DNA from: an uncultured Prevotellaceae bacterium
GTDB taxonomy: Bacteria; Bacteroidota; Bacteroidia; Bacteroidales; Bacteroidaceae
DNA length: 64,000 nucleotides
Assembly (NCBI GenBank): GCA_947168555.1
Contig: CAMVMJ010000006.1
Coordinates: 648 to 64,647 of the forward strand
Direction of reading: 5' to 3'
This document shows, piece by piece, positions 5,768-16,235 of the stretch. The notes below the pieces were generated by a model. The model was not told the DNA's origin. It saw nothing but the letters and a program-made list of their open reading frames with translations, and made no database searches. Positions within the stretch are counted from its first letter, which is position 1, and every line of letters starts with the position of its first letter. The translations under genes were made by a program, and so were the position numbers.

Positions 5768-8053
5768 TTATTTGCGGTTACTTAACTTGCTCTGTGCTTT
5801 GGCATTTCCCTGACTGGCAGACTTCTCGTACCAGAAATACGCCTTCTTCAAATCTTTCGAGACGCCCTTACCATTCTCGTAGAATACGCCTAATGTGTAT
5901 TGTGCACCGGCGTTTCCTTGATTGGCAGCTTTTTCGAACCAGTAAAAAGCTTTCTGATAGTCCGTGCCAACACCCAAGCCAGCCTCATAGAGACAGCCTA
6001 AATTGTTTTGAGCAAAAGCATTTCCCTGGTTGGCAGACTTTTCGTACCAATAAAAAGCCTTATGTAAGTCTTGCTGAACGCCAATGCCATTCTGATAACA
6101 AAAGCCTAAATCGCATTGCGCACCGGCGTTTCCTTGATTGGCAGACTTCTCATACAAGTTTACAGCTTTTAGAAGATCTTTCTCAACACCATAGCCTTTC
6201 TGATAGCACACGCCTAAATTGTATTGTGCAGCGGCATTTCCCTGATTGGCAGACTTCTCATACCAGTAAAATGCTTTCTGATAGTCTTTCTCTACACCCC
6301 AGCCATTCATATAGGAAAGGCCTAAGTTGTATTGTGCAATAGCATTATCTTGATTGGCAGCCTTTTCGTACAAAGAAACTGCTTTATTTAAGTCTTTTTC
6401 AACGCCATGACCATTCTCATAGCACACACCCAAATTGCATTGCGCATCGGCATATCCCTGATTGGCCGCTTTTTCGTACCAGTAAAATGCTTTCTGGTAG
6501 TCGTTCTCTACACCAAAACCATAATAATAGAGTATACCTAAATGGTATTGTGCCTTGGCATAATCCTGATTGGCAGACTTCTCATACAAGTTTACAGCTT
6601 TTAGAAGATCTTTCTCAACACCATAGCCTTTCTGATAGCACACGCCTAAATTGTTTTGTGCAACGGCATTACCTTGATTGGCAGCCTTCTCGAACCAGTA
6701 CACAGCCTTGTCATAATTTTGGGCAATGCCTGTGCCATTACAATAGAGATTGCCTAACTCGACTTGTGCACCAGCATGTCCCTGATTGGCCGCCTTCTCA
6801 AACCAACTTTCCGCTTCTATTATGTTTTTAGTTATTACTACATAGCACAATGCCAAATAATATTGAGATTCAGCATGTCCTTGCGGTGCCAGCCTTTGAA
6901 ACTCACTAATGGCCTGCTGATACTCTTTCTTTTCATATAAATCCATCGCTTCCCGGTAAACTGTACCGGTATCACTCAGGGCAACATTCAGGCCTGCAGC
7001 CCCGTTCTCCTGCACTTCCACCGTGGCTTTTGTTACTGCAAATCCGGAGAGAATAAGCGTCACTTCATGCTGTCCTATCAATAATCCGTTGATGTCACTC
7101 GGCGTGGTGCCGTAGTCCTTTCCGTCAATCTTGATGCCGGCGCCTGCGGGGGTTGATTTGACATGAAGCGCACCTGTAATCGGAGTGGGTGGTGTCAGTT
7201 CAATGGTGCGGACATCGTTTTCTCCCACCGTGATGCTCCGGGTACTGCTGAGATGATTCTGCTGACGACACTCCACTTGACATGTGCCGGAAATCAGCGG
7301 CCCCGTCCACGAGCCGACACCCTTCTTCTCGCCGTTGACCCAGATTTCTGCACCGCCGTCCACCGAAAGGGTAATCTGAGAAGAATACGGACGCAGCGTC
7401 ATCTTCTCGCTGTGCGTCTTACTTCTGTCGTTGAGCGTGAAACGTCCTTCTGACGGATAGTAACTTACAGACGCAATGCGATAGGTGTAGGTATCAAGGG
7501 GCATATTCTTTAATAACAGGCCTGCTGCATCCGTTACACCCAATATCTGCTCCTCAGCATCCGCCGCAGAACCTTTCGCCATTATCGTCACCCTGGCATC
7601 GGCGGGCTCCACCTCGAACATGACCATCTGAGTGCTGATTGCTGTCCCTAACGCAGATAGCTGCATGCGGTAGGTCTTACCGGATTCTATGGTCGTACGG
7701 AGGTCGTAGTTGCGCAGGGGTGCGCAACCCTCACGGGTGATGGTCACCTGTTTTGCGCTCTTCTGCACATAAACCCAGAGTTGGTCATCGTGCTCCTCTG
7801 TGAGGTGGTTCATGTTGCCAAAGTTGAAAAGATATTCACGTAAGTTGTCACCTTCATCACCGCTCACCTTGATGATGGCATAGAGCGCCCCGCTGGGGTC
7901 GACCTTCTTGAAACGTTCGTCCCGGGCCGACAAATCAAACACGTCCTCGCTAAAACTCACCACCCGAAGCTTGGGAACTTCCTGTCCGATGACACTCAAT
8001 GCCCCCGACAACAATAGGAACAATGCAGAGGATACAATTTTTATAGTCTTCAT
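5768..8053 (-). CDS. exported PEGA-domain / Sel1-repeat protein
   Basis: 761-aa ORF with a signal peptide. Shares the N-module and PEGA region (LHVKSTPAGAGIKIDGKDYGTTPSDINGLLIGQHEVTL) with its paralogues. Followed by about 10 Sel1-type repeats (KAANQGNAxAQxNLGxCYxxGxGVEKDxxKAxxWYEK). Confidence 0.88.
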   Translation of the reverse strand: MKTIKIVSSALFLLLSGALSVIGQEVPKLRVVSFSEDVFDLSARDERFKKVDPSGALYAIIKVSGDEGDNLREYLFNFGNMNHLTEEHDDQLWVYVQKSAKQVTITREGCAPLRNYDLRTTIESGKTYRMQLSALGTAISTQMVMFEVEPADARVTIMAKGSAADAEEQILGVTDAAGLLLKNMPLDTYTYRIASVSYYPSEGRFTLNDRSKTHSEKMTLRPYSSQITLSVDGGAEIWVNGEKKGVGSWTGPLISGTCQVECRQQNHLSSTRSITVGENDVRTIELTPPTPITGALHVKSTPAGAGIKIDGKDYGTTPSDINGLLIGQHEVTLILSGFAVTKATVEVQENGAAGLNVALSDTGTVYREAMDLYEKKEYQQAISEFQRLAPQGHAESQYYLALCYVVITKNIIEAESWFEKAANQGHAGAQVELGNLYCNGTGIAQNYDKAVYWFEKAANQGNAVAQNNLGVCYQKGYGVEKDLLKAVNLYEKSANQDYAKAQYHLGILYYYGFGVENDYQKAFYWYEKAANQGYADAQCNLGVCYENGHGVEKDLNKAVSLYEKAANQDNAIAQYNLGLSYMNGWGVEKDYQKAFYWYEKSANQGNAAAQYNLGVCYQKGYGVEKDLLKAVNLYEKSANQGNAGAQCDLGFCYQNGIGVQQDLHKAFYWYEKSANQGNAFAQNNLGCLYEAGLGVGTDYQKAFYWFEKAANQGNAGAQYTLGVFYENGKGVSKDLKKAYFWYEKSASQGNAKAQSKLSNRK

Positions 8054-8063
8054 ATCTTAAGTC

Positions 8064-14855: not shown

Positions 14856-14888
14856 AACTATGTTTTTTTATAATATTTTTTATAATAT

Positions 14889-16235
14889 TCAAAACCTTAT
14901 ATCACGCCACTCATTACCCATAAATCCATGACTTTCCGTGGGTGTCTGTTCTTTATGTAATGATACTACTGATTCCTTGCCCACATTATCCTTCACATAA
15001 TCATAAAGTTCACCATATGTGAGATTACCTCGATTTTCTCTCAATGCTTTCAACAGAAAGTATGTAAATAAGCCATGTGCTTTCTCGTCATAAGCAAGGG
15101 CTGTCTGAGTATTAGAGGCTGCCGTAATTGCCACAACTTTTCCCGTAATATTCTGTTCTTGTGCACGAGCTATACCACGTTTACCATCGGGATCTGGAAT
15201 TGCATCATCATGGCGGTCGGTACCGCTAAAGCATGCGTCCACCAAGACAATAGCAGATTGCGCGCCGAGGTTTCCCATGGTTGCATAGACATCACTCAAA
15301 GGAATACCTGTACTAGTGTCGTTGATGCTGCCCTCTCTTGGAATAAGATAACACTTGCCTTTTAAATCCGGAGCGCCATGACCGGCATAATAAAAAATGT
15401 ATTTTGCCTCAACGCCATAATGATTGCTCACCATCTTCAACCAATCCAGATTCTTCTTCATATCCAAATACCCTGCATTAGGAAGGTAAACAATATTCTT
15501 CTCCGGAATGCCCAAAGTGTTACGGCAATATTGTCTGAATATCTTTGCGTCCGTTTCTGCCCACGGCACGTTGGGGGTATCTTTGCTAATATACTTTTCA
15601 TTACCTATAATGAGACAGAACGTTTTATCCCGTTGTATTCCACCAAAGGGAATGGCCACATCCACATCTGATTCTCCTGCTTTCCCAATAATCTTAACTC
15701 TATCATCAATCGGACTCACAGATGGCTGTGGTTCTTCCACAAAAGAGATAGGATCCTCCTTATGTTGAATTGCATTCGGATAGAATGTCTTCCCTTCGTT
15801 CAAGTCCAAGGCAATCGCTCCAACAGGGAGAGTCACAAACGAAATATTACGACCATTCTTGAAAGCATCCTTACCAATGTATTTAACAGACTGCGGCAAG
15901 TAAACCTCATACAATTGTTCAAACTGACTGAAACAATCATCTTCTATTCTTTCTACTCCTTCTTCTATTTGGAGTATCTGCGTGTCATAGATATAGTCGT
16001 AAACATTGTACAAATCTACCGCCACCACAGAGAATCTCCTGCCTTTCTTGTCTGCCACATTAGCTGGAATACGCACACGCTCAGTATTACCACTATAAGA
16101 CGTAATGATAGCCTTCCCATACCGGACTTTAAACGAGAATATCGTGCCGAACTTGTCATTGAATTTTTCCGCGTGCAAACCCATGCAAGCAAACAGCAAG
16201 GCCACAGAAAGTAAAATATTAAAATAGTATTTCAT
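14889..16235 (-). CDS. exported caspase-family (peptidase C14) protease with BspA-type LRR-like N-domain
   Basis: ORF 14889..16493. Start moved to MKYYFNILLSVALLFACMGLHA (signal peptide). LRR-like segment VRIPANV...IEEGVERIEDDCFSQFEQLYEVYLPQSVKYIGKDAFKN. Catalytic His in YIFYYAGHGAPD and Cys in IVLVDACFSG. Confidence 0.85.
   Translation of the reverse strand: MKYYFNILLSVALLFACMGLHAEKFNDKFGTIFSFKVRYGKAIITSYSGNTERVRIPANVADKKGRRFSVVAVDLYNVYDYIYDTQILQIEEGVERIEDDCFSQFEQLYEVYLPQSVKYIGKDAFKNGRNISFVTLPVGAIALDLNEGKTFYPNAIQHKEDPISFVEEPQPSVSPIDDRVKIIGKAGESDVDVAIPFGGIQRDKTFCLIIGNEKYISKDTPNVPWAETDAKIFRQYCRNTLGIPEKNIVYLPNAGYLDMKKNLDWLKMVSNHYGVEAKYIFYYAGHGAPDLKGKCYLIPREGSINDTSTGIPLSDVYATMGNLGAQSAIVLVDACFSGTDRHDDAIPDPDGKRGIARAQEQNITGKVVAITAASNTQTALAYDEKAHGLFTYFLLKALRENRGNLTYGELYDYVKDNVGKESVVSLHKEQTPTESHGFMGNEWRDIRF

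What the first reader, a model, noticed from the sequence alone, without database searches (positions are those of the whole stretch)
5768..16235. Exported caspase (C14) operon whose usual fusion-partner domains are split into separate secreted proteins
Eight same-strand genes run from 16235 down to 5768, separated by gaps of 7-40 nt or by overlaps. The first gene encodes a caspase-fold protein. It has a cleavable signal peptide (MKYYFNILLSVALLFACMGLHA), a BspA-type LRR-like N-domain and an apparently intact His/Cys dyad (YYAGHGAPD, VLVDACFSG), so it should be both exported and active.

The genes that follow encode an OM beta-barrel, a BACON lipoprotein, an LPP20+DUF4384-like protein, a CHASE2 protein with no output domain, a transglutaminase-like Cys-His-Asp protein, and two PEGA+Sel1 proteins. 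An FGE-sulfatase-like paralogue sits at 2258..4099.

CHASE2, DUF4384, FGE-sulfatase and Sel1/TPR are the domains known to be fused C-terminally to bacterial orthocaspases, as described for cyanobacteria. Here the same repertoire is spread over separate signal-peptide-bearing proteins in one operon. That points to a multi-component, envelope-located caspase sensing or effector system. No cytoplasmic NTPase, transcription factor or immunity-like gene is present. I know of no characterised equivalent in Bacteroidota.
Basis: partly seen in the sequence, partly recalled or inferred. Interest (0 to 1): 0.8.

Follow-up and report, generated by a model that had tools for sequence, protein, structure and literature searches.

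The report
Exported caspase and LapG-like protease gene module
A rumen Prevotella carries a gene cluster, recurring in at least 130 of the ~160 related Prevotellaceae loci fetched and not found described in the literature searched, that sends caspase-type and LapG-like cysteine proteases into the cell envelope, and an output-less CHASE2 membrane protein always travels with a special N-terminal tail on the LapG-like protease.

Summary
Eight tightly packed minus-strand genes (16235 to 5768) encode exported proteins.

**Domain calls**
- Confirmed: C14 caspase with LRR and an aligned His/Cys dyad, CHASE2 without an output domain, PEGA+Sel1 (two genes), and a PEGA+FGE-sulfatase paralogue.
- Supported indirectly: DUF4384 (through homologues) and the transglutaminase-like protease (AlphaFold model, best structural match LapG).
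- Weak: BACON, the outer-membrane barrel and LPP20.

**What is conserved**
Comparison with about 160 related loci changes the picture. The conserved unit is f2 (LPP20-like), DUF4384 protein, one to four caspases, then a LapG-like protease.
- In this family the repeat domains are usually fused to the caspase, not split off.
- CHASE2 is an optional insert.
- CHASE2 co-occurs perfectly (72/72 versus 0/30 loci) with an N-terminal "SDPATVTR" module on the protease.
- The barrel, BACON and Sel1 genes are strain-specific cassettes.

**Interpretation**
My best explanation is a periplasmic proteolytic switch, analogous to but not homologous with LapD/LapG. An envelope conflict system is the main rival. 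None of my eight literature searches found a description of this system. The function is inferred, not shown.

The parts
16236..16440 (-). Upstream promoter-like region of the caspase operon. It contains GAGAC direct repeats and a TAnnTTTG-type element (TATTTTTG). It is a diverged copy of the region upstream of the U7 gene (21962-22170).
   Evidence: Repeat D4: 16298-16393 versus 22023-22118, 74% identity. Four-way alignment with L006. Sequence read. The Bacteroidetes -7 consensus comes from my own knowledge.
14889..16235 (-). G1: exported C14 caspase (448 aa). It has a signal peptide, a BspA-type LRR and a caspase domain with His (YYAGHG), an S1-type Asp and Cys (VDAC).
   Evidence: Pfam Peptidase_C14 1.1e-18 and LRR_5 4.9e-8. 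The profile aligns to the corresponding YYAGHG/LLDMC motifs of MALT1. It has H/D/C at the catalytic columns, like 111 of 125 complete relatives. Signal-like N-terminus. The longer 534-aa ORF is rejected: its extension lies in the duplicated non-coding element.
14112..14855 (-). G2: exported 247-aa protein, probably an outer-membrane beta-barrel. It is a strain-specific accessory gene.
   Evidence: Weak NCBIfam TDE1717 barrel hit, 1.6e-3. Signal peptide and C-terminal ...GVKF. Found only in the window and L006, at 60% identity. No relation to other accessory families. Low GC.
13278..14075 (-). G3: lipoprotein (lipobox LSSC followed by QDFTEE) with a sub-threshold BACON domain. It is a strain-specific accessory gene.
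   Evidence: BACON 1.5e-4, 22.1 bits against a cutoff of 25. Lipobox. Only 46% identical in L006, where its flanking genes are 91-98% identical.
12434..13270 (-). G4: exported protein with a weakly LPP20-like N-terminal domain and a DUF4384-family C-terminal domain. It is a conserved core component.
   Evidence: No Pfam hit of its own, but 16 of 21 family members hit DUF4384, best 2e-8. Present in 27 of 77 CHASE2-anchored loci and 30 of 40 protease-anchored loci. Its N-terminus resembles the f2 profile weakly (hhalign 52%).
11237..12421 (-). G5: CHASE2 membrane protein. Layout is TM1, periplasmic CHASE2 domain, three TM helices, then an 18-residue tail. There is no output domain.
   Evidence: Pfam CHASE2 2.1e-20. 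TM segments. 332 homologues with E <= 0.001; the 120 listed are 311-463 aa and carry only the CHASE2 Pfam domain. AlphaFold model pLDDT 77 with no PDB fold match.
9619..11280 (-). G6: exported LapG-like (transglutaminase-fold) cysteine protease. Order of features: signal peptide (LYA|Q), basic tail with the SDPATVTR motif, conserved helix, Pro/Glu/Lys-rich linker, then the C-terminal domain with Cys472/His499/Asp526. Judging by homologues, the true start is probably at 11247 (MGNR...).
   Evidence: Transglut_core 9.7e-4, below cutoff. Invariant C/H/D. AlphaFold pLDDT 92.5, pTM 0.90. Foldseek top hits 4u65_E (LapD ortholog periplasmic domain/LapG complex) and LapG 4fgq, then 3isr, 3kd4 and PNGase, at probability 0.87-1.0 for the top twelve. 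Found in 67 of 77 CHASE2 loci. 5712 database relatives. Linker composition.
11059..11082 (-). Codons for the SDPATVTR motif (residues 67-74 of the 553-aa ORF). This is the hallmark of the CHASE2-linked N-terminal module of G6.
   Evidence: The motif is present in 72 of 72 loci with CHASE2 and 0 of 30 loci without it. It occurs once among the 18 cluster proteins (374-22054), in G6. In other loci it sits on a separate small protein, f4.
8064..9617 (-). G7: exported protein with a constant N-module, one PEGA domain and Sel1 repeats. The start is probably the ATG at 9578. It is a strain-specific cassette.
   Evidence: Pfam PEGA 3e-18, Sel1 4.5e-58. N-module shared with G8 and G9. Replaced in L006.
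5768..8053 (-). G8: exported protein with a constant N-module, Ig-like domains, PEGA and at least nine Sel1 repeats. It is a strain-specific cassette with a low-GC repeat array.
   Evidence: Pfam. 108-nt periodic repeats. GC 0.42 versus 0.53. Absent from L006.
2258..4099 (-). G9: exported protein with the same constant N-module, PEGA domains and an FGE-sulfatase (C-type-lectin-fold) head. It belongs to a recurrent partner family of the CHASE2/G6 pair.
   Evidence: Pfam FGE-sulfatase 2.1e-48, PEGA 7.6e-27. The family occurs in 22 loci. Heads vary: FGE-sulfatase in 5 members, Sel1 in 2, and the rest barrel-like.
374..2239 (-). G10: exported 621-aa protein with an f2/LPP20-like N-terminal domain and a weak NTF2-like (Cds6_C) C-terminus. 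It is a recurrent partner.
   Evidence: Present in 23-25 CHASE2-anchored loci. hhalign of the f2 profile against G10 residues 34-118 gives 92.5%. Cds6_C 6.9e-4, below cutoff.
16490..22054 (-). Upstream operon of seven exported proteins (U7-U1), including DUF6175 and a WG-repeat protein. It is probably co-regulated with the caspase operon. The link is tentative.
   Evidence: DUF6175 2.3e-93, WG_beta_rep 7.9e-8. Signal peptides. Shared upstream element. U3/U4/U5 homologues lie next to caspase/G6 arrays in L012, L020 and L154.

Best explanation
This locus is one member of a conserved Prevotellaceae envelope protease module, and I propose it acts as a periplasmic proteolytic switch.

**Components.** One or more Arg/Lys-type C14 caspases are exported. 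Each carries a repeat-type binding domain, here an LRR. With them come an LPP20-like protein, a DUF4384 protein and a LapG-like transglutaminase-fold cysteine protease.

**CHASE2 sub-type.** The window belongs to the sub-type that includes CHASE2. Here an output-less CHASE2 inner-membrane protein uses its periplasmic domain to bind the protease's N-terminal module (the SDPATVTR tail). This would hold or release the protease at the inner membrane, while a Pro-rich spacer projects the catalytic domain toward the peptidoglycan and outer membrane. The arrangement would work like LapD sequestering LapG, but without c-di-GMP input.

**Outcome.** Release or activation would lead to cleavage of co-encoded envelope proteins: the PEGA-module proteins with lectin, Sel1 or barrel heads, and the OmpA-like and barrel proteins. 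The cell surface would be remodelled as a result.

**Shown:** domain identities, export signals, catalytic residues, synteny, and the CHASE2/N-module co-occurrence.

**Inferred:** physical binding, the direction of regulation, the substrates and the physiological output.
For: - **Core synteny.** The CHASE2 and G6 genes are adjacent in 67 of 77 loci. In 40 protease-anchored metagenome loci with at least 6 kb of upstream sequence, caspase occurs in 30, DUF4384 in 30, f2 in 27 and CHASE2 in 7. Independent neighbourhood look-ups show the same order.
- **Protease identity.** The G6 model (pLDDT 92.5) best matches LapG among solved structures, and its Cys/His/Asp are invariant.
- **Coupling.** The SDPATVTR-type module is present in 72 of 72 CHASE2 loci and 0 of 30 loci without CHASE2.
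- **Location.** CHASE2 topology puts the domain in the periplasm with no output domain. All components carry signal peptides, most with Gln after the likely cleavage site, which fits the Bacteroidetes Q-rule (PMC5837995, seen).
- **Caspase competence.** The dyad is intact and aligns to the corresponding MALT1 motifs. An Asp sits before the Cys, as in Arg/Lys-specific relatives (the specificity rule is my own knowledge).
- **Envelope partners.** PEGA, OmpA-like, Sel1 and YkuD neighbours point to the peptidoglycan/outer-membrane layer.
Against: - There is no experimental or structural evidence that CHASE2 binds G6. The co-occurrence is not corrected for phylogeny, and the relaxed motif was defined after looking at the data.
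- In some loci the motif lies on a separate small protein (f4), not on the protease, so a simple tether model is incomplete.
- The LapG similarity is structural only: Foldseek E about 1e-2 and TM-score about 0.5 normalised to LapG. There is no LapD, no c-di-GMP domain and no LapA/T1SS.
- No substrate has been identified.
- Hypervariable accessory genes and tandem diversified caspases fit a conflict role at least as well.
- The most common form of the system lacks CHASE2 altogether, so the caspases' own role is unexplained.
Confidence: 0.4

Rival explanations
1. The module is an envelope-level conflict system, acting in anti-phage or anti-competitor defence or in programmed cell death. The repeat and lectin-type heads (LRR, Sel1, WG, TPR, FGE-sulfatase fold, BACON) and CHASE2 would sense foreign molecules or envelope damage in the periplasm or at the surface. 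This would activate the caspases and the LapG-like protease, which destroy envelope proteins to block infection or kill the cell.
For: - **Signs of diversification.** Loci carry 1-4, in one case up to 6, tandem caspases with different N-terminal repeat domains. A pseudo-caspase subfamily (His to Leu, Cys to Pro) makes up 12 of 125 caspases.
- **Strain-level turnover.** The barrel and BACON genes are 60% and 46% identical between genomes whose flanking genes are 91-98% identical, and the Sel1 genes are swapped for another cassette.
- **Variable heads on a constant N-module**.
- **Other hints.** CHAT proteases replace C14 caspases in some loci. A small 2-TM protein between caspases weakly resembles CyanoTRADDas_TM and holins. 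Some loci are flanked by AbiEii, type I R-M or Cas9 genes.
- **Precedent.** Caspase, FGE-sulfatase-fold and Sel1/PEGA domains are recurrent in predicted conflict systems (PMC7159879, PMC8195603).
Against: - There is no NTPase, nuclease, TIR or other known effector or switch.
- No PADLOC system matches; only a generic caspase model hits, at 5e-8.
- The NCBIfam EACC1-type caspase model scores 79 bits against a cutoff of 140.
- No DGR-type repeat exists for the FGE-sulfatase head.
- All parts are extracytoplasmic, so intracellular invaders could not be sensed.
- The locus sits among housekeeping genes, not in an obvious defence island. The defence-gene neighbours elsewhere are anecdotal.
Confidence: 0.27
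2. The module builds or cross-links a surface or cell-wall-associated structure. The transglutaminase-fold enzyme would act as a true transglutaminase or transpeptidase, and the caspase as a sortase-like processing enzyme. Together they would attach PEGA, OmpA or Sel1 proteins to each other or to peptidoglycan, or mature surface lipoproteins and pilins at Arg sites as gingipains do for type V pili.
For: - Peptidoglycan-associated domain types are present in partner proteins: PEGA, OmpA-like, Sel1, and YkuD in L083.
- G6 has a Lys/Glu/Gln/Pro-rich linker.
- T9SS-type LRR surface proteins occur in some loci.
- From my own knowledge: clan CD enzymes can act as transpeptidases (PorU, legumain), and Arg-gingipain matures type V pilins.
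Against: - The closest structural relatives of G6 are proteases and amidases (LapG, PNGase), not cross-linking transglutaminases.
- No pilin, S-layer or polysaccharide biosynthesis genes lie in the cluster.
- The accessory genes are too variable between strains to be a fixed structural product.
Confidence: 0.15
3. The genes are a chance juxtaposition of unrelated exported-protein genes, with no functional unit.
For: Several genes (G2, G3, G7, G8 and the plus-strand gene at 4170-5741) are not conserved partners. GC content is mosaic, 0.39-0.63.
Against: - The core gene order recurs in roughly 130 of the ~160 independent genome and metagenome loci fetched, down to 30-40% protein identity.
- Motif and CHASE2 co-occur perfectly.
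- Gene spacing is tight or overlapping.
Confidence: 0.02

Closest known systems
LapD/LapG periplasmic proteolysis switch (Pseudomonas, Legionella)
   Same: Both have a periplasmic transglutaminase-fold (BTLCP) cysteine protease, and LapG is the best structural match to G6. In both, the protease gene is paired with a gene for an inner-membrane protein that has a periplasmic domain.
   Different: - The membrane partner here is CHASE2, with no HAMP/GGDEF/EAL cytoplasmic module and therefore no c-di-GMP input.
- There is no LapA-type adhesin, no LapE/T1SS and no sequence-level similarity (no PDB hit by profile).
- G6 is about 550 aa, with a Pro-rich spacer and an extra N-terminal domain.
- Caspases are co-encoded.
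Cyanobacterial and other bacterial orthocaspases with accessory domains (Asplund-Samuelsson 2012, PMC3501461; PMC7475262)
   Same: Both have a C14 domain with a His/Cys dyad. The accessory repertoire overlaps: Sel1/TPR, FGE-sulfatase, DUF4384 and CHASE2.
   Different: - In the described CHASE2 fusion the caspase domain is cytoplasmic. Here the caspase has a signal peptide, so it and CHASE2 lie on the same (periplasmic) side, and they are separate proteins.
- The repeats are N-terminal, not C-terminal.
- A LapG-like protease is an obligate partner.
Caspase-containing prokaryotic conflict systems (Kaur, Burroughs, Iyer, Aravind 2020/2021; EACC1/EACC2-caspase, ternary vWA-MoxR systems)
   Same: Both show caspase or CHAT effectors, variable partner domains, FGE-sulfatase-fold (FGS), PEGA, Sel1 and OmpA modules, and tandem diversified paralogues.
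   Different: - There is no NTPase, vWA, EACC or EAD component.
- The NCBIfam EACC1-type caspase model scores below its cutoff.
- The system is entirely extracytoplasmic.
- It is not described in those papers: CHASE2 is mentioned there only as a C-terminal fusion of EACC2-caspase proteins.
CHASE2 sensor proteins (adenylate cyclases CyaD1/CyaD2/CyaK of Sinorhizobium, GGDEF proteins, kinases)
   Same: Both share the Pfam CHASE2 domain and the TM1 / domain / three-TM topology. From my own knowledge, the S. meliloti CHASE2 cyclases also depend on an outer-membrane barrel protein (NsrA).
   Different: There is no cytoplasmic output domain. The protein ends 18 residues after the last TM helix, so any signal must be passed on within the membrane or periplasm.

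Membership tests
Peptidase C14 (caspase / orthocaspase) | Pfam Peptidase_C14 match above the curated cutoff | tested here: met
   68.3 bits against a cutoff of 21.4, residues 206-435.
Peptidase C14 (caspase / orthocaspase) | Catalytic His and Cys at the canonical positions | tested here: met
   The profile of 14 family caspase domains aligns YYAGHG and DAC with the YYAGHG and LLDMC motifs of MALT1. G1 has H/D/C at these columns.
Peptidase C14 (caspase / orthocaspase) | Proteolytic activity and Arg/Lys specificity | not testable with these tools
   Only the Asp preceding the catalytic Cys (VDAC) is seen. Specificity is inferred from my own knowledge of metacaspases.
CHASE2 sensor proteins | [quoted passage not shown] | tested here: met
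   73.8 bits against a cutoff of 26.3. TM segments at 1-19, 279-297, 322-340 and 344-362 of the 380-aa form.
CHASE2 sensor proteins | Cytoplasmic output domain (cyclase, GGDEF, kinase and so on) | tested here: not met
   The protein ends 18 residues after the last TM helix. The 120 listed homologues are 311-463 aa and carry only the CHASE2 Pfam domain.
Transglutaminase-like cysteine proteases (BTLCP / LapG-like) | Sequence-profile membership (Pfam Transglut_core or Peptidase_C93) | tested here: inconclusive
   Transglut_core scores 19.8 bits against a cutoff of 23. The family profile finds no PDB sequence.
Transglutaminase-like cysteine proteases (BTLCP / LapG-like) | Transglutaminase fold with a Cys-His-Asp triad | tested here: met
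   Model pLDDT 92.5. Foldseek hits to LapG, 3isr, 3kd4 and PNGase at probability 0.87-1.0 among the top twelve, but E only about 1e-2. C472, H499 and D526 are invariant in 30 sequences.
Lap (LapD/LapG/LapA) system | LapD-type c-di-GMP receptor, a LapA-like adhesin with a retention module, and a T1SS | tested here: not met
   No GGDEF, EAL, HAMP, RTX or T1SS domains in 374-22054. This is an analogy only.
DUF4384 | Pfam DUF4384 match | tested here: inconclusive
   The window protein has no hit at E <= 0.1. However, 16 of 21 full-length homologues (19-30% identical) hit it, best 2e-8. Membership is therefore by homology transfer.
LPP20 | Pfam LPP20 match in the N-terminal domain of G4 / f2 / G10 | tested here: inconclusive
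   5 of 26 members hit it, best E-value 0.0019, all below cutoff. f2 versus the G10 N-terminus gives hhalign 92.5%, and f2 versus G4 gives 52%.
BACON lipoprotein | Pfam BACON above cutoff, plus a lipobox | tested here: inconclusive
   22.1 bits against a cutoff of 25. Lipobox LSSC at residue 20.
FGE-sulfatase / C-type-lectin fold | Pfam FGE-sulfatase above cutoff | tested here: met
   165.6 bits against a cutoff of 23.3. The catalytic residues of true formylglycine-generating enzymes were not examined.
NTPase-regulated caspase conflict systems (EACC1, ternary systems) | EACC1/EACC2, vWA-MoxR, STAND or GTPase partner; EACC1-type caspase | tested here: not met
   No such domains. NF047832 scores 79.2 bits against a cutoff of 140. 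PADLOC returns only a generic caspase hit.

The most novel reading that the evidence does not exclude
Gut and rumen Prevotella may run a caspase cascade entirely outside the cytoplasm. In this reading, exported sensor-caspases (paired with pseudo-caspases) and a CHASE2-gated LapG-like protease form a periplasmic immune or cell-death pathway. The pathway would detect surface or periplasmic intruders and execute envelope self-destruction or shedding. That would make it an extracytoplasmic counterpart of apoptotic caspase signalling, and it would give CHASE2 its first defined protein partner.
Probability: 0.2. Interest if true: 0.85.

Novelty: new variant of a known kind. Interest (0 to 1): 0.64.

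Why it matters
- **Open questions it touches.** Bacterial caspase homologues and the CHASE2 domain are both widespread, and the physiological role of the caspases and the ligand or partner of CHASE2 remain largely unknown.
- **What this locus adds.** It defines a recurrent, entirely extracytoplasmic caspase module in Prevotellaceae. That family includes abundant rumen members, and related loci were also recovered from human-gut metagenomes.
- **A testable prediction.** The periplasmic domain of CHASE2 should recognise the SDPATVTR-bearing N-terminal module of a LapG-like protease.
- **If the switch model is right.** It would show how an output-less 'sensor' domain can signal by controlling a protease, and it would identify proteases that shape the Prevotella cell surface.
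- **If the conflict reading is right.** It would extend caspase-based immunity to the periplasm.

Tried and rejected
1. **CHASE2 as a membrane-anchored pseudo-caspase that dimerises with caspases.** The AlphaFold model (pLDDT 77) has no significant PDB fold match; the best hit is E = 0.21 and there are no clan CD hits. The idea is not supported.
2. **Single-sequence search of G1 against PDB.** It found only LRR proteins. A family profile was needed.
3. **Profile of G6 against PDB sequences.** Nothing was found.
4. **Structure prediction of G6 using locus-derived homologues.** I redid it with database homologues.
5. **DGR-type diversification of the FGE-sulfatase head.** No template/variable repeat pair exists in the window.
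6. **Rfam families in 1-24000.** None.
7. **Known defence systems.** PADLOC gave only a generic caspase hit and a spurious Sel1/PtuA hit.
8. **Homologue search with the 140-aa N-module of G9.** It returned only 12 fragments. Locus-derived members were used instead.
9. **G2 or G3 as diverged copies of the barrel or BACON families of other loci.** hhalign gave no similarity beyond the signal peptides.
10. **G1 as the caspase of the DUF6175-type upstream module.** Its nearest relatives are the canonical array caspases at about 44% identity, not the U-linked ones at 25-36%.
11. **Exact-sequence look-up of the window's CHASE2 protein.** It is not in the collection.
12. **Literature searches for Cds6 and DUF6175.** Nothing relevant.

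Full report
**1. What is in the sequence**

The window carries a run of minus-strand genes from 22054 down to 374, interrupted by one plus-strand gene at 4170-5741.
- 14889-16235
- 14112-14855
- 13278-14075
- 12434-13270
- 11237-12421
- 9619-11280
- 8064-9617
- 5768-8053

Gaps are 7-40 nt or the genes overlap. No terminator-like sites fall in the intergenic gaps.

A 255-nt gap precedes the caspase gene. It contains a TAnnTTTG-type element. It is also a diverged duplicate (74% over 96 nt, with similarity extending to about 170 nt and including GAGAC direct repeats) of the region upstream of the gene that starts near 22054. This supports a separate promoter at the caspase gene. It also argues against the longer 534-aa ORF, and it suggests that the two operons are co-regulated.

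All 18 proteins encoded between 374 and 22054 have signal-peptide-like N-termini, whereas cytoplasmic control proteins from the same window do not. Most have Gln just after the likely cleavage site, as expected from the Bacteroidetes Q-rule (PMC5837995). The rest of the window is ordinary chromosome: aminotransferase, branching enzyme, PBP1 and peptidases.

**2. Domain checks**

Pfam and NCBIfam confirm these calls:
- Peptidase_C14 plus LRR_5 in G1
- CHASE2 in G5
- PEGA plus Sel1 in G7 and G8
- PEGA plus FGE-sulfatase in G9

BACON (G3) and Transglut_core (G6) fall just below the curated cutoffs. G2 has only a weak outer-membrane-barrel family hit. G4 has no hit of its own.

Further checks:
- **Caspase dyad.** A profile of 14 caspase domains from related loci aligns YYAGHG and DAC with the matching YYAGHG and LLDMC motifs of MALT1, which by my own knowledge hold His415 and Cys464.
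- **G4.** 16 of 21 full-length homologues hit DUF4384. The LPP20 assignment stays weak.
- **G6.** Cys472, His499 and Asp526 are invariant in 30 homologues. An AlphaFold model of the C-terminal 369 residues is confident (pLDDT 92.5, pTM 0.90). Its best PDB matches are the periplasmic protease LapG, two uncharacterised Bacteroidota/Cytophaga transglutaminase-like proteases, PNGase and vasohibin.
- **G7, G8 and G9.** They share a signal peptide and a roughly 110-residue N-terminal module (motif NFGNMNH) plus PEGA, then diverge into Sel1 or FGE-sulfatase heads.

**3. Related loci**

I took two samples. A CHASE2-anchored scan of one genome per species returned 78 loci, almost all from rumen or gut Prevotella and Prevotellaceae. 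One of them, L006 (RUG598), is ~97% identical in flanking DNA to the window (98% for the CHASE2 protein). I clustered the ORFs of these loci.

| Component | Loci (of 77 with CHASE2) |
|---|---|
| CHASE2 | 77 |
| G6 | 67, almost always immediately downstream of CHASE2 |
| f2, a ~219-aa secreted protein | 50 |
| G4 / DUF4384 | 27 |
| C14 caspases | 24 loci, plus 8 more with a TPR-caspase family (f10) that overlap these in part, often 2-6 tandem copies |
| G10 | 23 |
| G9-type PEGA proteins | 22 |

In loci without a C14 caspase, a TPR-CHAT protease can take its place.

A second, G6-anchored scan of metagenomes returned 80 loci, many from human gut. Of the 40 loci with at least 6 kb of upstream sequence, 30 have caspases, 30 have DUF4384, 27 have f2 and only 7 have CHASE2. 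Neighbourhood look-ups agree.

The canonical module is therefore f2, DUF4384 protein, sometimes a barrel, caspase(s), then the LapG-like protease. CHASE2 is an optional insert just upstream of the protease.

G2 and G3 occur only in the window and L006. There they are 60% and 46% identical, while the flanking genes are 91-98% identical. G7, G8 and the plus-strand gene are replaced in L006 by one G9-like gene.

**4. Three new observations**

- **CHASE2 and the protease N-terminal module travel together.**
  - The N-terminal extension of G6 holds a nearly invariant SDPATVTR motif, in some loci preceded by a FecR-like beta domain. Sometimes it is split off as a separate small gene, f4.
  - This extension occurs in all 72 CHASE2-containing loci and in none of 30 loci lacking CHASE2.
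  - This co-occurrence, rather than the caspase/CHASE2/DUF4384 trio, is the main argument that CHASE2 works with the protease. The count is not phylogenetically corrected, and the relaxed motif was defined after the fact.
- **Repeat domains are fused to the caspases.** Of 73 distinct caspases from these loci, 26 carry WG repeats, 20 Sel1, 17 LRR_5 and about 7 TPR at the N-terminus. In this family the repeat domains are fused rather than split.
- **Pseudo-caspases sit beside active ones.** 12 of 125 complete caspase domains have His replaced by Leu and Cys by Pro, and two have Cys replaced by Ser. They sit next to intact copies in tandem arrays.

**5. Mechanism**

- **Shown:**
  - an all-exported gene set
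  - two cysteine-protease types with intact catalytic residues
  - a CHASE2 protein that cannot signal to the cytoplasm through any known output domain
  - strict coupling between CHASE2 and a specific N-terminal module of the LapG-like protease
- **Inferred:** CHASE2 binds that module in the periplasm and controls where or when the protease acts, in the way LapD controls LapG. The Pro/Glu/Lys-rich spacer (16 Pro in 60 residues) places the catalytic domain away from the membrane. The caspases use their repeat domains to select substrates or ligands. The targets are co-encoded envelope proteins.
- **Confidence:** I give this switch model about 0.4.
- **Main rival, about 0.27:** an envelope conflict system. 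It is favoured by the tandem diversified caspases, the pseudo-enzymes, the hypervariable surface genes and the variable heads. It is weakened by the absence of any NTPase, known effector or PADLOC match.
- **Second rival, about 0.15:** an assembly or cross-linking role.
- **Chance juxtaposition** is excluded by the synteny.

**6. Comparison with what is known**

- Orthocaspase surveys list Sel1/TPR, FGE-sulfatase, DUF4384 and CHASE2 as fused accessory domains. They interpret the CHASE2 fusion as an external sensor with a cytoplasmic caspase.
- The Aravind-lab conflict-system papers mention CHASE2 only as a C-terminal fusion of EACC2-caspase proteins. They do not describe this module.
- Searches for CHASE2 with CHAT, for DUF4384, for Prevotella caspases and for DUF6175 found nothing relevant.
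- The locus fails the defining tests for the Lap system and for NTPase-regulated caspase systems. It resembles them in logic only.
- I rate it a new variant of known kinds (orthocaspase loci, periplasmic protease switches). It is recurrent in an ecologically important family and uncharacterised.

**7. Verdict**

- Interest is 0.64.

Noticed in passing
window 16236-16440 and 21962-22170 (minus strand): Two upstream regions share about 170 nt of similarity. Both contain TGAGAC...TGAGAC...GAGA direct repeats, a T-rich stretch and a TAnnTTTG-like element. They look like duplicated promoter/operator regions that would co-regulate the caspase operon and the seven-gene upstream operon. No Rfam family matches.
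   Followed up: partly
window 16490-22054: An operon of seven exported proteins of unknown function, including DUF6175 (17892-18833, E = 2e-93) and a WG-repeat protein (20600-21055). Homologues of three of them lie next to caspase/protease arrays, with their own short caspase, in L012, L020 and L154.
   Followed up: partly
related loci, e.g. L114:6234-7904, L012:2012-3769, L007:6295-8358: A pseudo-caspase subfamily with catalytic His replaced by Leu and Cys by Pro (12 of 125 complete domains; two more have Cys replaced by Ser). It always sits in tandem with intact caspases, which suggests regulatory heteromers.
   Followed up: partly
L073, L074, L076, L079, L080 (Alloprevotella-type loci): Loci of the form OmpA-like protein / CHASE2 / f4 / TPR-CHAT protease have no C14 caspase and no LapG-like protease. 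CHASE2 is therefore also linked to a second caspase-fold protease family (CHAT, E = 5e-53 in L076).
   Followed up: partly
L003:6850-7275, L007:4483-4956: A small (~150 aa) protein with a coiled N-terminus and 2-3 TM helices sits between tandem caspases. It weakly resembles CyanoTRADDas_TM (2.5e-4) and a holin family. It could be a membrane-disrupting effector.
   Followed up: no
window 4170-5741 (+): The only plus-strand gene in the cluster. It encodes an exported ~504-aa protein with no family match and low GC (0.40), and it is absent from the ~97% identical (flanking DNA) genome L006. It probably arrived together with the Sel1 cassettes.
   Followed up: partly
window 5783-6838 and 8049-8672: Sel1 repeat arrays appear as 108-nt periodic DNA repeats (12 copies, 62-73% identical). 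Their GC is about 0.42, against about 0.53 for the N-terminal halves of the same genes. This mosaic suggests that the head domains were swapped in by recombination.
   Followed up: partly
window 13278-14855 vs L006: The barrel and BACON-lipoprotein pair is only 60% and 46% identical to its L006 counterpart, while the neighbouring genes are 91-98% identical. This is a local hypervariable, probably surface-exposed, pair.
   Followed up: partly
window 40139-44993 (-): Adjacent genes for an M6 (immune inhibitor A-like) peptidase and a 980-aa C10 (streptopain-like) cysteine protease with an Inhibitor_I69 prodomain. They are further exported proteases and are unrelated to the cluster.
   Followed up: no
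window 452-1876 (+), 2294-4243 (+), 10099-11190 (+): Long antisense ORFs (363-649 aa) overlap the GC-rich genes G10, G9 and G6. Their Ala/Gly/Arg/His/Val-rich translations have no signal peptide. I treat them as artefacts of composition.
   Followed up: no
L083:7477-7989: A YkuD (L,D-transpeptidase) gene sits between the caspase and the LapG-like protease in a human-gut Prevotella-type locus. This hints at a link to peptidoglycan.
   Followed up: no
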